Shown piece by piece: positions 1,028 to 58,936 of a DNA stretch of 64,000 nt; positions within the stretch are counted from its first letter, which is position 1; each line of letters begins with the position of its first letter. The stretch is from Octopus vulgaris (taxonomy: Eukaryota), in the NCBI GenBank assembly GCA_951406725.2, contig OX597838.1, forward strand, positions 18,538,001 to 18,602,000. The letters run 5' to 3'. The translations under genes were made by a program, and so were the position numbers. A model generated the notes under the pieces. It did no database searches, was not told where the DNA came from, and was given only the letters and a program-made list of their open reading frames with translations.

Positions 1028-1172
1028 CTCCTTGTTTCTTTCTGTGTTCCTTTCTGTGGAAGAGCGTAGGCTCGAAACGTTAAAGACTTCTTCACTACCC
1101 GAGCGTTAAACTAATACATCTGTTTGTTCTCTAAACCACCCTTTCTTCTTTTGTTCTTTTTTGTAAATTCTC
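1028..1172 (+). mobile_element. Family E short PLE-like element with variant hammerhead core
   Basis: Near-identical to 13375-13500, 16472-16656 (rc) and 48723-48899 (rc). Motif CTTT CTGTGGA A GAGC GTAG GCTC GAAAC GTT AAAG at 1050-1085. Confidence 0.75.
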
Positions 1173-1422
1173 TCCATATATATGTATATATATATATATA
1201 CACACACACACACACACACACACAACAGACACATATATATATATATATATATATATATACACACACATGCATATATGTTGGAATTTTGACTGGTGACTAT
1301 TCTTTCTCTCTTATGCATATTTATATGTATGTATGTATATATATATATATATATATATATATATATATATATATATATATATATATATATATATATATGT
1401 GTGTGTGTGTGTGTGTGTGTGT

Positions 1423-1550
1423 ATTAATTTGCGACTAGCTTATAGTTTCAGAAGCCTGTCTCAGTCGCTGCGATTTTCTCAAGACTAGCTTTGAGAAGGC
1501 CACAACGATTGAAGCAAGTTTCTAAAGCTGTAAGCTAGTCACAAATAAAT
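1423..1550. repeat. Imperfect palindrome (~60-bp arms)
   Basis: atttgcgactagcttatagtttcagaagc...ttctcaag pairs with ttgagaag...gtttctaaagctgtaagctagtcacaaat. Confidence 0.85.
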
Positions 1551-1969
1551 ATATTCAATGCACTTCCTGAAGTAATAAGTCTTTTGTTAGATATATGAAT
1601 GCCATCCTCCAACGAGCAAGCACAGAAGACATAAGATGCGTGTGTGTCTACGCAAGTGTATATATATATATGTCTGTGTTATGTGTGTGTATGTATATAT
1701 ATATACTCACACACACTACACACATATATGCATATAAATACATGTAGCAATCTTTACCGAAACATATCTAAGAAATCTAAATTATACACATATACGTATG
1801 TGTATATATGCATATATATATTTATGTATATATATATATATATATATATATTTTATGTATTTATGTATATATATATATTTATGTATATATATATATATAT
1901 ATATATATATATATATATACATACACACACACACACACACACACACACACACATATATGTATATTGTTT

Positions 1970-2221
1970 TATTCTTTTACTTGCTTCAGCCACTTTGACT
2001 GTGACCGTACTGGAGCACCATCTTTTAGTCGAAGAAACCAACCCCTGGATTTTATTCTTTGTAAGCCTGGTACTTTATCGTTCTCTTTTGCCAAATCAAC
2101 TCACAAGGCTTTGGTCGGCCCGAGGCTATAGGAGAAGACACTTGCCCAAGGTGTCACGCAGTGGAGCTGAACCCGGAACCTTGTAGTTGGGAAACAAGCT
2201 ACTTACCATGCAGCCATGCCT
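1970..2221 (-). mobile_element. SINE family A (tRNA head + CORE-like ccttgggcaagt), central part deleted
   Basis: Reverse complement of the head and tail of 63284-63696. Confidence 0.9.
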
Positions 2222-3677
2222 ATCCTTCCCTTATTTATTCCTTCCTCACTTCTCTAATTCTCTTTCCATCTCTAACGCAACTCTCATTTCTGAACTTTCT
2301 CTTTCTCTTTCCAAACACTCTTTCTTCGCAAATCCTTATCTCATGCATGCACAATTATTAATTGCTATCATTATCTAGTTTGTCCACTCTCTCCTATATT
2401 ACGGAAGAAGAACAGGATTTTGATCACTCCTCTAAGACTGACATCTTTCAAGACAACGCAACTCGACTTGCATCGCCGAGCAAACTGATATAGATAGACG
2501 CGCCCGTGCGCTCGTGTCTTCGTGTGCTGCGCGTGCGTAAGAGTTGTTTGTATGTGGGTATGCATGCGTGCTTGTGTGTGTAGGGGGGTTGGGGTTGTTC
2601 TCGTTCTTGTGATTCGAGTTTCACGCTACAGCGATCTTCAGGTGAACTGATGTTGATCTAACTCTTATTGCCGGAAAGAGAATTCAGTTTGATTTAACAT
2701 TATACTCTACATTATGTATGAAGTACTCTAGCTGCTTTCCTTGACAAACTGAACAATTTCTTCACCCACGCAAACCTACTACTACTACTACTACACACAC
2801 ACACACACACACACACACACACACACACACACAAGTACACACACGTATGTTATATATATATATATATATATATATATATATATATATATCATTATAGATA
2901 TAGGGTAAAGAATTATTAATTTAATAATTATTAAATTTTACCAAGTACTTTCGGTATGGAAAAATACACCATTATTGGTAAAATCTTATATAAAAAGTTT
3001 TTTTTTTATAATTGTAAGCATAATTAAGGGATTAGCAAAAAGATACTTCACCACATACCGAAAATTTAGAAATATATATATAAGCAACACTATATATATA
3101 CATATATATATATATATATATATATATATATATATATATATATATATATATATATATATATATACATATATATATATATATAATATATATATATGTATGT
3201 ATGTATGTATGTATGTATGTATGTATGCATGTATGTATATTTACATATGTGCCTGTATACACAGATACATATATACATATATACACATGTAGTTCGTTAT
3301 AGATTAATTTTTAGTTCAACGTTGCGTTTGATGCGAAGTGATTCTTAACAGATAACAAACTCACACCACCATGCAGGTTAGCTTACTCACGTGTAAGCTA
3401 ATCAGCACCGTTTTTATTTTCCTAGTCATAAACCGCGATCGCTTGGTAGAACATCAGTTAGGCGATGCAGAATCTAACGATGTTTAACGAACCGAAAAAA
3501 CTTTGGTCAATACGCTATCTGCGTTGTTTTGGCGAGTAATTCCTGTATTCCACCAAACCCGAACCACATATTTATTCAACATTAAGATCATGTATTTTTT
3601 TTTTACGTTGAATGCATGAATATCCATATATGTACACTTACAAGCACAGGTATACGCTCACATTCACAATTATACAC

Positions 3678-4118
3678 GCACGTGGCTCTGTGGTAAGTAG
3701 CTTGGTTCCGGGTTCAGTCCCATGGTTCCGGGTTCAGTCCCACTGCGTGGCACCTTGGGCAAGTGTCTTCTACTATAGTCTCGGGCCGACCAAAGCCTTG
3801 TGAGTGGAGTTGGTAGACGGAAACTGAAGGAAGCCCGTCGTATATATGTACATATATATATATATATATATATATATATATATATATATATATGTATATG
3901 TGTGTATATGTTTGTGAGTCAGTGTTTGTCCACCCCCCCCCCCAACATGGCTTGACAACCGATGCTGGTTTCGCAAAAGACAGACCGATAGAATAAGTAC
4001 TAGACTTACAAAGAATAAGTCCTGGGGTCGATTTGCTCGACTAAAGGCGGTGCTCCAGCATGGCCGCAGTCAAATGACTGAAACAAGTAAAAAAAAAAGG
4101 GGGGGGGGGTAAAAGAGT
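3678..4118 (+). mobile_element. SINE family A
   Basis: tggctctgtggtaag (A box) ... ggttcagtccc (B-box-like) ... ccttgggcaagt ... internal (TA)n/(TG)n ... tail gactgaaacaagtaaaa. Confidence 0.92.
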
Positions 4119-4119
4119 A

Positions 4120-4437
4120 ATTTACAGAGTTACAAGCAGTTGGATAATTATGTCTATGAATTTTCGTGGGTAGTTCATTGTCTTGACCAATTCTTCCTGG
4201 CCTATATTCTCTATCTGAGTGAATTCCCAAACCGTGACGTTGTGATGGTATACAATGTGTATTACAGTTGGAGGAATCACCAGTGTTGTACATGACTACT
4301 TCTTGTGCATGTTGAATTTTTTTCGCTGTACTCAGCCCTAACTAGAGCCGCATTAAAATAAGTTGCGTATGATTCGAAAATTTTATTATTAGCGGATAAT
4401 CTAGAAATTCTTGCAGAAATATTCCCAACTAATCCCC
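4120..4437 (-). pseudogene. Penelope-like element ORF fragment (RT C-terminal/thumb region into linker)
   Basis: Minus strand translates GLVGNISARISRLSANNKIFESYATYFNAALVRAEYSEK (frameshift) IQHAQEVVMYNT, matching the PLE pattern I.xRISxLSxN..IF......YN.AL...GY. Confidence 0.75.
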
Positions 4438-56694: not shown

Positions 56695-56865
56695 CGCTTG
56701 ACAACCGATACTGGTGTGCTTACATCCACGTAACTTAGCGTTTCGACAAAAGCGACCGATAGAATAAGTACTGAGATTACAAAGGATAAGTCCCGCGGTC
56801 GATTTGCTCAACTAAAGACGGTGCTCAAGCACAAATAAAAGATTAAAAGAATAAAAGAAAAGAAT
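56695..56865 (+). mobile_element. SINE A 3' half
   Basis: cgcttgacaaccgat...ataagtact...gtcgatttgctc. Confidence 0.85.
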
Positions 56866-56872
56866 ATAGATA

Positions 56873-57064
56873 TTAGGTTGGTGCATAATTAATGCGGACC
56901 TTTTTTTTTTTCAATAAATTTAAACACAACGCCAAGCAGCAATTGAAGTAGATGGTGAATATGCTCCGGGATAATCATTTAAATATGTTTTTGTTAAATG
57001 TTGTTATTGTTTTTGTTGAATAAAATTTATTGAAAAAAGCCGCAAGACTTATGCACCAACCTAA
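56873..57064. mobile_element. Mariner-type MITE
   Basis: TIRs ttaggttggtgcataa / ttatgcaccaacctaa flanked by TA. Confidence 0.9.
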
Positions 57065-57102
57065 TATATGTATGTATGTTTGTTTGTTATTTTTGTTTCT
57101 TC

Positions 57103-57392
57103 TCAAGCCATGCCTGGCTCATAAGGGCCGGTTTCCCGGTTTCCTTGGCGTATAGGTTCCCCACCTGGACGGGACGCCGGTCCGTCGCAGGTGAGCTGCA
57201 TGATGCAGGAGGGAAGAGGGAGAGAAAGTTGTAGCGAAAGAGTCACCTGAAGCTCGCCATTACCTTCTGCCGGGGCCGCGTGGAGCTTAGGTGTCTCGCT
57301 CATAAACACACACATCGCCCGGTCCGAGATTCGAACCCACGATCCCTCGACCGCGAGTCCGCTGCTCTAACCACTAGGCCATGTGCCTCCAC
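57103..57392 (-). mobile_element. SINE C-related element with a third tail type
   Basis: Head ggaggcacatggcctagtggttagagcagcgg; tail cctgcgacggaccggcgtcccgtccagg...gaaaccgggaaacc. Confidence 0.85.
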
Positions 57393-57524
57393 TATGTATG
57401 TATGTATGTATGTATGTATGTATGTATGTATGTATGTATGTATACGTAAAGAAAATGGCAAAATCGACGGATAGACATCATTTTATTAATAGAACTCCAA
57501 TCACAAATAATCTCAATTCCTTAC

Positions 57525-57617
57525 AGCCTACAATTGCTTTCATACTCAATTAATTCAAACAACAAAGTTAAATTAAGATGTATTTGAATATAATTAATTG
57601 AATATTTCATCAGGGTT
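57525..57617 (-). ncRNA. Hammerhead motif with long stem II (one-base insertion)
   Basis: aacc CTGATGA A ATATTCAATTAATT..AATTAATTGAGTAT GAAA(G)C AATT GTA ggct. Confidence 0.6.
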
Positions 57618-58720
57618 AGAAATCGATATAAAAAGGAATCACATCTCAACGGATTGATTGATCAATCATTGACAGACTCTTAAGATGTATATATATATAT
57701 ATATATATATATATATATATCCTCGCAATAATATATATATATATGTATATATACACATATATATGTATATATATATATATACATGTATATACATACATAC
57801 ATTATATATATATATATATATATATATATGGGGGGGTATGAATATATATATATATATATATATATATATATATATATATATATATCCTCGCAATAATATA
57901 TATATATATGTATACATACACATATATATGTATATATATATATATATACATGTATATACATACATACATTATATATATATATATATATATATATATATAT
58001 ATATATATATATATATATATATATATATATATATATGGGGGTGTATGAATATATATATATATGTATATATATATATATATATACTATTTATCATGATCCT
58101 CATCATCATCATCATCATCTTCATCATTATTATTATTATTATTATTATTATTATTATTATTATTATTATTATTATTATTATTATTATTATTATTATATAT
58201 GTATATCCCCCCAACCAACCTCCCACACTGTCCCTTAAAATAGCAAACATTCCTTAGCTACACACAAGAGAAAATGTCAGAAAGACAGGTCAGTTATTCC
58301 TCTACAATTTTTTGTAAATTCTTAAATATATCTCCCTCTGTGTATGTATATATATACTACCAAACAAACATGATTTGGAGTCCTGTTCTGATTATTTTCT
58401 TAAATACTTTCTAGTAAACTGTTTTTAACATTTTCTTATTATTCTCAAAGAATGTATATCTGTTTTTTAATTTTTTTTGTGATAATCAGTACTTAATACA
58501 ACAAAGGTCATACAAAGCTTTACATTTTACTTTTGACAATCTTTTTCTAAGAAGTGAAACGGGTCAAGTGAATAAACATCTTTAAAATTGCATATTCAAA
58601 CCTTCTTCATATATATATATATATATATATATATGCATTTTTATATATATATAATATTATATATATATATATATATATATATATATATATATATATATAT
58701 ATATATATATATATATATAT

Positions 58721-58936
58721 AGTTAATCCAAACAAGAATGCACAAAAAAAACACAACAACGCGAGGACGTGGAACAAGTATAGTATTGTTGGACGCTCAG
58801 GAAAGAAGGAAAGAAGGAGGGTTTAACGTTTCGAGCGGAGCTCTTCGTCGGAAACATAGGAGAAGGAACGATCCAGAGAAGGGAAGACAGAGGGGAAAAA
58901 AATCGCCAACGGTACACACGCGGTCACATTTTGAAT
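58721..58936 (-). mobile_element. Family D element, full length
   Basis: Core at 58821-58855; (TA)n on the left flank. Confidence 0.85.

What the first reader, a model, noticed from the sequence alone, without database searches (positions are those of the whole stretch)
1050..58855. Families D and E carry recurring non-canonical hammerhead cores with a covarying stem I
D (35046, 58821; same core at 39770): GUUU CCGACGA A GAGC-loop-GCUC GAAAC GUU AAAC (U4C). E (1050, 48808): CUUU CUGUGGA A GAGC GUAG GCUC GAAAC GUU AAAG (A6U). The outer stem I pair switches G-C to C-G between families, stem II is retained with different loops, and stem III is a loopless ACGU that can only form in a dimer. More diverged relatives (16750, 22290, 26697) keep canonical CUGANGA. 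An extra A after A9 is a known tolerated variant. Inference: structure is conserved while catalytic residues changed, so this is either a variant ribozyme or a fold retained as an RT-recognition signal.
Basis: partly seen in the sequence, partly recalled or inferred. Interest (0 to 1): 0.7.

Follow-up and report, generated by a model that had tools for sequence, protein, structure and literature searches.

The report
Penelope retrotransposon ends with variant hammerheads
These repeats are short end-pieces of Penelope-type jumping genes whose hammerhead ribozyme motif carries one non-standard core letter in thousands of genomic copies, including a young protein-coding family; the motif is likely a slowed self-cutter rather than a dead one, but cutting is untested.

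Summary
The motifs are real (5 matches in the window, 0 in 100 shuffles; 48,625 genome-wide versus 49 control). They are minimal type I hammerheads of Penelope-like element (PLE) terminal repeats. E continues upstream into a PLE endonuclease gene. D's U4C core also flanks a young, intact PLE (family H), but D's own coding parent was not found. U4C and A6U are derived and lineage-fixed, not random; a related PLE from a metagenome has the canonical core and compensated stems. Copies do not start at the predicted cut. They pile up about 100-115 nt upstream, so most templates were uncut. Yet both repeats of one H insertion share private mutations, which suggests a circular or re-read template. Best reading: a slowed, probably protein-assisted ribozyme. 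New variant of a known kind; the scan noted both variants before on other DNA of this genome.

The parts
58712..58936 (-). Family D short copy of a PLE terminal repeat; hammerhead motif 58821-58855 with U4C core, predicted cut between 58825 and 58824; ends in (TA)n
34939..35135 (-). Family D copy; motif 35046-35080, U4C core, loop II UUC, predicted cut between 35050 and 35049
39691..39915 (+). Family D copy; motif 39770-39804, U4C core, 3' arm of stem I changed to AAGU
33..129 (-). Family D 3' part; the hammerhead motif is removed by an internal deletion
1050..1180 (+). Family E short copy; motif 1050-1085 with A6U core, predicted cut between 1081 and 1082
48718..48900 (-). Family E copy; motif 48808-48843 with A6U core, predicted cut between 48812 and 48811
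13366..13520 (+).
16467..16656 (-).
16686..16900 (+). Diverged relative (motif 16746-16780), canonical CUGACGA but stems I and II and GAAA damaged
22231..22433 (+). Older D-related copy (motif 22286-22320), canonical CUGAAGA, first stem II pair broken
26661..26835 (+). Older D-related copy (motif 26693-26727), canonical CUGACGA, G12 changed to A

Best explanation
D and E are short end-pieces of the terminal repeats of Penelope-like retrotransposons (likely the Neptune type), and their motif is the minimal hammerhead of such elements with one lineage-fixed core change (U4C or A6U) that likely slows, but does not abolish, protein-assisted self-cutting. Shown: the link to RT/endonuclease genes (E directly; D through the 82%-identical end of family H), a fixed 3' end about 100 nt past the predicted cut joined to (TA)n, 5' ends piled up 90-117 nt before the cut, lineage-fixed derived core letters, and homogenised repeats within H insertions. 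Inferred: RNA starts at a promoter inside the repeat; the element's protein nicks (TA)n and starts reverse transcription about 100 nt past the motif; most RNAs are still uncut, which gives the ~200-nt copies that span the site; rare cutting at both repeats plus ligation would give a unit-length circle, which would give the more-than-unit-length copies with identical repeats.
For: PLE link: L071-L073 hold an RT + C-x4-C-x2-C linker + endonuclease frame between direct repeats 5.9-6.2 kb apart that end in the D-type motif. Of 82 scored matches, 41 lie in open frames of 850 aa or more, at 91-100% identity. Of 30 loci picked by the E-linked endonuclease region, 19 carry the E motif downstream, 18 of 19 with U6. 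Not random: exact 31-mer counts are C4 6,280, U4 2,493 and the CpG-decay control G5A 194 (the 31-mer also matches family H). In the first 100 of 16,791 E matches position 6 is U in 95 and position 4 is U in 96, while N7 takes all four bases (A8, C4, G6, U12 in the first 30). In H, 21 of 22 intact upstream motifs have C4. Derived: canonical cores are basal in a tree of 192 copies, and the related PLE L303 (51% aa) has CUGAUGA in both repeats with all four stem I pairs and one stem II pair compensated (register read by hand). Constraint: lineage-level changes are 0 at C3, G5, G8, A9, G12-A14, 15.1, 16.1 (p 0.03) and 0 in stem II (p 0.02), against 9 at N7 and 6 at H17, never to G at H17. Template: 7 private substitutions in 5 of 18 H insertions are present in both repeats, on both sides of the cut; 15 of 20 H copies extend 174 to at least 2,960 nt upstream of the cut with scattered ends. 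Literature: U4C lowers activity in vitro but still permits viroid infectivity (PMC3088659); the PAc hammerhead cuts only when its protein is present (PMC11167929).
Against: No trace of cutting: 0 of 30 ORF-picked H copies begin at the predicted cut; among copies joined to TATAT near the site, 9 of 28 D loci fall in the -1 to +1 class against 8 in the +2/+3 class, and 1 of 10 E loci. Stem I is 4 weak pairs, with U-U in H, and is not better conserved than flanks (p 0.49). The hammerhead dimer fold is far from the predicted minimum (about -5 to -14 versus -24 to -29 kcal/mol). All single changes in the CUGA turn gave low activity in a mutational scan (PMC9901934), and A6C is under 0.1 per min (PMC3088659). 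Hammerhead mutants did not affect PAc insertion in vitro (PMC11167929). The constraint test used copies partly picked by the motif and noisy pyrimidine-rich flanks. Homogenised repeats can also come from RT template jumps, back-splicing, gene conversion or assembly polishing. D's own coding parent was not found in 8 long or chimeric D loci. No intact E parent was seen: 435 pairs of E-linked endonuclease pieces are at most 92% identical.
Confidence: 0.55

Rival explanations
1. The motif no longer cuts in these lineages and is kept as a fold or sequence that the element's protein binds near the start site of reverse transcription; repeats are homogenised by RT template jumps or back-splicing.
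For: No 5' ends at the cut; stem II and GAAACGU invariant while stem I erodes; A6U is predicted to pair the core with the ACG of stem III (pair probability 0.35-0.98 in the six commonest U6 motifs against at most 0.11 in three A6 copies); PAc needs RNA around its hammerhead but not its catalysis in vitro (PMC11167929).
Against: The positions left free (N7, H17 other than G, loop II) are the ones a hammerhead leaves free, and C3, G5, G8 and G12 stay fixed after A6U across four N7 sub-lineages. A plain hairpin signal does not predict that.
Confidence: 0.3
2. The core changes are neutral passengers in master copies: the motif is a vestige and its apparent conservation comes from recent common descent and from how copies were picked.
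For: D, E and H are 70-82% identical over their ends; many copies were collected by the motif itself; U4C is a simple transition.
Against: Sets picked without the motif (H by ORF, E by endonuclease, D by 5' end) show the same invariant letters, and the outside PLE at 55-61% identity keeps the core and GAAACGU with compensated stems.
Confidence: 0.08
3. U4C and A6U cores are fully active variants, rescued by a contact, a metal ion or a protein not visible in the sequence.
For: The youngest intact family carries C4; the natural A6C core cuts well in Mn2+ (PMC7151607).
Against: Thousands of copies span the cut site uncut; no compensating change travels with U4C (C4 and U4 occur in near-identical H elements, L071-L073).
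Confidence: 0.07

Closest known systems
Minimal type I hammerheads in pseudo-LTRs of metazoan Penelope-like elements (Cervera and de la Pena 2014, PMC4209133; parts 1-2 of 4 read, one of two supplementary files searched)
   Same: Short stem I, extra base after A9, G10.1-C11.1, palindromic 15.2-16.2 with no loop III, mostly solo copies genome-wide, a few in full elements. Their alignment holds CGUU and CGUC cut contexts.
   Different: Their descriptor and the rows I saw have CUGANGA or the U3-A8 covariant; here U4C or A6U is the majority state of whole lineages, including a young coding family. Stem II is only 4 bp.
Neptune/Nematis-type EN+ PLEs (PMC8557442, passages)
   Same: DKG motif, RT, CX2-5CxxC linker before a C-terminal endonuclease, tandem and inverted arrangements, microsatellite targets.
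   Different: Terminal repeat about 3 kb and CA-microsatellite-rich in family H; clade not fixed by a tree.
Poseidon PAc of Anolis (Frangieh et al. 2024, PMC11167929; parts 1-2 of 4 read)
   Same: Reverse transcription starts inside the RNA downstream of the hammerhead; AT-rich target; uncut RNA is the main template; no ends found at the cut.
   Different: PAc's ORF starts inside its hammerhead, whose core is reported active with protein; here the motif lies several hundred bases before the long frame and the core is variant.
Natural core variants U4C (viroid) and A6C (phage Bcep176) (PMC3088659 and PMC7151607, passages)
   Same: Same positions altered; reduced activity in vitro.
   Different: Those ribozymes have full stems; A6U as a natural majority state was not in the passages I read.
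Animal non-LTR retrozymes (PMC7229834 passages; bioRxiv 10.64898/2026.07.22.740005, parts 1-3 of 5)
   Same: Non-coding, hammerhead-bearing, PLE-related repeats.
   Different: Retrozymes are tandem units with a fixed length; D and E are solo pieces with ragged 5' ends that extend into PLE sequence.

Membership tests
Penelope-like element (EN+) | Single frame with RT and GIY-YIG endonuclease | tested here: met
   Family H frame: RVT_1 at E 5e-4, below Pfam's cut-off; DKG motif and endonuclease motif read by eye; 26% match to a second endonuclease with a weak GIY-YIG hit. E-linked pieces are 43-69% identical to H protein.
Penelope-like element (EN+) | Direct terminal repeats (pLTRs), partial tandems | tested here: met
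   L071-L073 repeats 5.9-6.2 kb apart; arrays of 2-3 frames on C16 and C10
Penelope-like element (EN+) | Family E is the terminal repeat of such an element | tested here: met
   Nested upstream extensions to 600-800 nt; 19 of 30 endonuclease-picked loci carry the E motif downstream
Penelope-like element (EN+) | Family D has its own coding parent | tested here: inconclusive
   82% identical to the end of H; 2 loci join D directly to H-like frame pieces (76% and 88%); none of 8 long or chimeric D loci shows a contiguous parent
Neptune clade | CX2-5CxxC linker and microsatellite targeting | tested here: met
   C-x4-C-x2-C before the endonuclease; 16 of 18 H downstream repeats end in TA-rich DNA, the other 2 run into the next unit; definition from PMC8557442
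Neptune clade | Placement in an RT tree with reference Neptune, Nematis and Poseidon elements | not tested
   No named reference proteins were fetched
Minimal type I hammerhead | Three-way layout: stem I, core, extra base, stem II, GAAA, palindromic stem III, H17 | tested here: met
   86% of cells paired against at most 44% with slid partners
Minimal type I hammerhead | Consensus core CUGANGA | tested here: not met
   U4C in young D and in H, A6U in E; met in older D, basal E and L303
Minimal type I hammerhead | Catalytic G8 and G12, C3-G8 pair, A15.1-U16.1, H17 not G | tested here: met
   No lineage-level change at these positions in 192 copies
Minimal type I hammerhead | Significant covariation of stems | tested here: inconclusive
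   One double change within the genome; 4 pairs with double changes in 15 rows is reached by 60 of 500 shuffles (that alignment misplaces the outgroup by one column); five compensated pairs against L303 read by hand; R-scape not available
Minimal type I hammerhead | Self-cleavage at H17 as a dimer | not testable with these tools
   Needs bench assay; indirect genomic test (5' ends at the cut) was negative
Non-LTR retrozyme | Tandem units of fixed length, each with a hammerhead | tested here: not met
   All window copies are solo; 5' ends ragged
Rfam hammerhead families | Match to a curated covariance model | tested here: not met
   No hammerhead match at E up to 10 over 58760-58900; none among the 150 listed of 452 window matches

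The most novel reading that the evidence does not exclude
A currently expanding Penelope-like element replicates through a ribozyme-cut, unit-length circular RNA while carrying a non-consensus (U4C) hammerhead core. The core of these elements has been tuned down independently (U4C twice, A6U once) so that most RNA stays uncut, and the shared private mutations in both terminal repeats are the genomic record of rolling-circle reverse transcription that was proposed for PLEs but, in what I read, not shown.
Probability: 0.35. Interest if true: 0.7.

Novelty: new variant of a known kind. Interest (0 to 1): 0.42.

Why it matters
The role of hammerheads in Penelope-like elements is an open question (stated in PMC8557442 and PMC11167929). 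This genome offers a natural allelic series: near-identical intact elements with C4 or U4, and E lineages with U6 or A6, so catalysis versus recognition can be tested with natural sequences alone. It also shows that CUGANGA-based searches miss the majority state of large families. The motif class itself is known, so the value lies in the test it allows rather than in a new system.

Tried and rejected
Rfam found no hammerhead. CpG decay as the source of U4 copies was rejected: G5A control 194 against U4 2,493. The idea that both core changes stabilise the same inactive helix with ACG was rejected: it holds for A6U only; D and H cores pair with CGU(U/C) whether position 4 is C or U. A pile-up of 5' ends at the predicted cut was looked for and not found (only junctions to TATAT were counted genome-wide). 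Nine random 10-kb stretches from large contigs gave only 1 copy, so copies were instead sampled by pattern along the start of contig C1. L074 (two D copies 6.4 kb apart) is a local duplication without a PLE frame, and L075 and L063 hold pieces of another PLE family near D copies with no shown continuity. Sequencing runs: no RNA holder listed; the four runs laid were contigs of guessed type and cannot show ends or strand. The motif pattern had 0 matches in viral contigs. Only 1 of 18 metagenome PLE loci (L303) showed this motif; 2 others showed different canonical-core hammerheads, and most contigs were too short. The Pfam family I wanted for PLE searches is not in the library. Lunse et al. 2017 and Arkhipova et al. 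2017 are not held, so their variant lists were not seen. PMC12910113 passages gave nothing relevant.
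Full report
Observation. The combined D/E pattern has 5 matches in the window and none in 100 shuffles. The window holds 10 motif-bearing copies, one D copy with the motif deleted and one doubtful remnant. Each is a solo piece of 100-230 nt that ends in (TA)n. The host is a 2.8-Gb animal genome. Its repeats look octopus-like to me; this is recalled, and no call names the organism. A stem II + GAAA pattern has 48,625 matches genome-wide against 49 for the reversed control.

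What the repeats belong to. Two pairs of D-core matches lay 6.2 kb apart on one strand. Fetching them showed full Penelope-like elements (family H, L071-L073): a frame with a DKG motif, RT, a C-x4-C-x2-C linker and an endonuclease, between direct repeats that end in the motif. Pfam support is weak (RVT_1 E 5e-4, below cut-off), so the assignment rests on motifs described in PMC8557442 (passages) and on the architecture. H is young: 82 scored matches at 91-100% identity, 41 of them in open frames of 850 aa or more. The end of H is 82% identical to D and 75% to E. E copies form a ladder of 5' truncations reaching 600-800 nt upstream into an endonuclease gene; of 30 loci picked by that gene piece alone, 19 carry the E motif downstream. 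D copies extend about 300 nt upstream at most in my sample; none of 8 long or chimeric loci showed a contiguous parent frame, though two join D directly to H-like frame pieces. D may be mobilised by a relative such as H (inference).

Are the core changes random? No. The D/H 31-mer occurs 6,280 times with C4 and 2,493 times with U4; the control for CpG decay (G5A) occurs 194 times, so both states were master states. D copies picked by their 5' end alone split 14 C4 to 15 U4 among 29 of 30 with a motif. In H, 21 of 22 intact upstream motifs have C4. Among the first 100 of 16,791 E matches, position 6 is U in 95; among endonuclease-picked loci, 18 of 19. In a midpoint-rooted tree of 192 copies (those of 257 long enough to align) canonical cores are basal; U4C arises twice and A6U once (the position of H's long branch is uncertain). 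C4 copies of D are younger than U4 copies (median divergence 3.6% against 6.4%; 18 and 15 copies). A related PLE from a metagenome contig (L303, 51% aa identity) has CUGAUGA in both repeats, which confirms the direction of change.

What is conserved. Counting changes on branches with three or more descendants, C3, G5, G8, A9, G12, A13, A14, A15.1 and U16.1 show 0 (15 on tips), stem II 0 (17), N7 9, H17 6 (never to G), flanks 262 (805) (Fisher p 0.03 and 0.02). Many copies were picked by the motif and the flanks align poorly, so these p values are soft. The catalytic guanosines (PMC9901934 passage; mapping to G8 and G12 recalled) are untouched; the changed letters belong to the CUGA turn. Stem I is the weak part: one G-C to C-G switch between D and E, G-U in 11 of 24 older D copies, U-U in H, and no better conservation than flanks (p 0.49). 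On 15 aligned motifs 86% of cells pair against at most 44% with slid partners, but the number of doubly changed pairs is reached by 60 of 500 shuffles. Against L303, read by hand, all four stem I pairs and one stem II pair are compensated.

Evidence on cutting. None of 30 frame-picked H copies begins at the predicted cut; 23 reach into or through the motif and 7 stop in the body. Of 20 followed further, 15 extend 174 to at least 2,960 nt upstream with scattered ends. Genome-wide, copies joined to TATAT near the site show no spike: 9 of 28 D loci in the -1 to +1 class against 8 in the +2/+3 class, and 1 of 10 E loci. Instead 5' ends pile up upstream: 19 of 33 D copies at -117 to -102 and 18 of 42 E copies at -99 to -89 (copies not picked by their 5' ends), with the upper edge on a shared CATTC motif. 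I read this as a transcription start (inference). The 3' ends are fixed about 100 nt past the cut, where the upstream repeat of H runs on into the element and the downstream one into (TA)n, as for internal initiation in PAc (PMC11167929, parts 1-2 of 4). Short copies therefore come from uncut RNA. Against a purely dead motif: in 18 H insertions with both repeats, 7 private substitutions in 5 insertions are in both repeats, on both sides of the cut, lineage substitutions are concordant wherever both repeats cover them, and 8 substitutions are in one repeat only. Both repeats were thus probably copied from one template region, as a unit-length circle would give; PMC4209133 proposed such circles from hammerhead cutting. 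Template jumps, back-splicing, conversion or assembly polishing remain possible. Folding does not favour the active form: the dimer hammerhead scores about -5 to -14 kcal/mol against -24 to -29 for the predicted minimum, and the core tends to pair with stem III in the monomer.

Mechanism. Most likely (0.55) a slowed, protein-assisted ribozyme: most RNA stays whole and yields ~200-nt copies; rare cutting and ligation yields circles and full copies. U4C is known to lower activity yet permit viroid infectivity, A6C gives under 0.1 per min (PMC3088659 passages) and is rescued by Mn2+ (PMC7151607 passages); all single changes in the CUGA turn gave low activity in a scan. The case is stronger for U4C than for A6U. 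Neutral passage (0.08) and full activity (0.07) are less likely.

Comparison and novelty. The motif works like, and in layout is, the minimal hammerhead of PLE terminal repeats (PMC4209133); it fails the consensus-core criterion at one position per lineage, and cleavage is untested. It is not a tandem retrozyme (PMC7229834 passages; bioRxiv 10.64898/2026.07.22.740005, parts 1-3 of 5, supplements not seen). I found no paper describing U4C or A6U as lineage states in PLEs in searches, nor in the rows shown from one supplement of PMC4209133 (the other file was not searched). A repeat annotation of an octopus species lists recently active Penelope-like families and does not mention ribozymes (PMC13282606 passages). 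Lunse et al. 2017, on dimeric PLE hammerhead variants, and Arkhipova et al. 2017 could not be read (only the former's title) and may already list these variants. Earlier notes of this scan on other DNA of the same genome report the U4C stubs (e1-9563196) and the A6U family (e1-10338406) with similar readings (seen after my analysis). The latter calls the E parent recently multiplying; my endonuclease-picked E loci are at most 92% identical, so I could not confirm that, though the youngest short E lineage diverges by a median of 4%. Notes e1-8662772 and e1-8797406 prompted the test for copies starting at the cut; e1-8666756 mentions a C4 core in another repeat, which I did not check.

Verdict. 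Observation confirmed; interpretation partly supported; new variant of a known kind; interest 0.42.

Noticed in passing
L072:1300-7745 (G000:C1:35077500-35086500); loci L191-L220: A very young Penelope-like family (H) with dozens of near-identical copies, half in open frames of 850 aa or more, a terminal repeat of about 3 kb made largely of CA-type microsatellite, and tandem arrays with a 6.2-kb period.
   Followed up: yes
H insertions L282-L300 with L319-L336, L071-L073: Both terminal repeats of one insertion share private substitutions (7 in 5 of 18 insertions); 8 substitutions sit in one repeat only; one site in the C10 array is in 3 of 4 units.
   Followed up: partly
D and E, 99-113 nt upstream of the predicted cut (window 58934-58945 region, - strand; L032:1480-1500): The upper edge of the 5' pile-up falls on a CCGG(T)CATTC motif shared by D and E that resembles an initiator element (resemblance recalled), followed by an ATG that opens only 1-4 codons in D, E and H.
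   Followed up: partly
about 25-35 nt downstream of the predicted cut in all families (window 58790-58800, - strand): A conserved CCYGAGCG block can pair with the 3' strand of stem II (predicted probability 0.1-0.56) and may act as an off-switch.
   Followed up: partly
L340:7353-7994 and L341:8383-8666: D copies joined directly behind fragments of an H-like reading frame (76% and 88% identical), possible template-switch chimeras.
   Followed up: partly
window 28766-28800, - strand: A further degenerate D-like motif with four mismatches.
   Followed up: no
L063:2120-3031, L075:1755-2681, L339:3468-4753: Pieces of another, AT-rich PLE family (about 30% identical to H protein).
   Followed up: no
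L093 (two copies, opposite strands): A different canonical-core minimal hammerhead with a long stem II, in inverted arrangement.
   Followed up: no
window 1962-2223, 3681-3840, 7965-8714, 61295-61677 and many more: Several abundant SINE-like families and short palindromic elements (1423-1550, 24715-25040, 50712-50922, 54811-54959); about 29% of the window is simple repeat.
   Followed up: no
L309:2341 and L313:558: Other metagenome PLE loci with canonical-core hammerheads and longer palindromic stem III.
   Followed up: no
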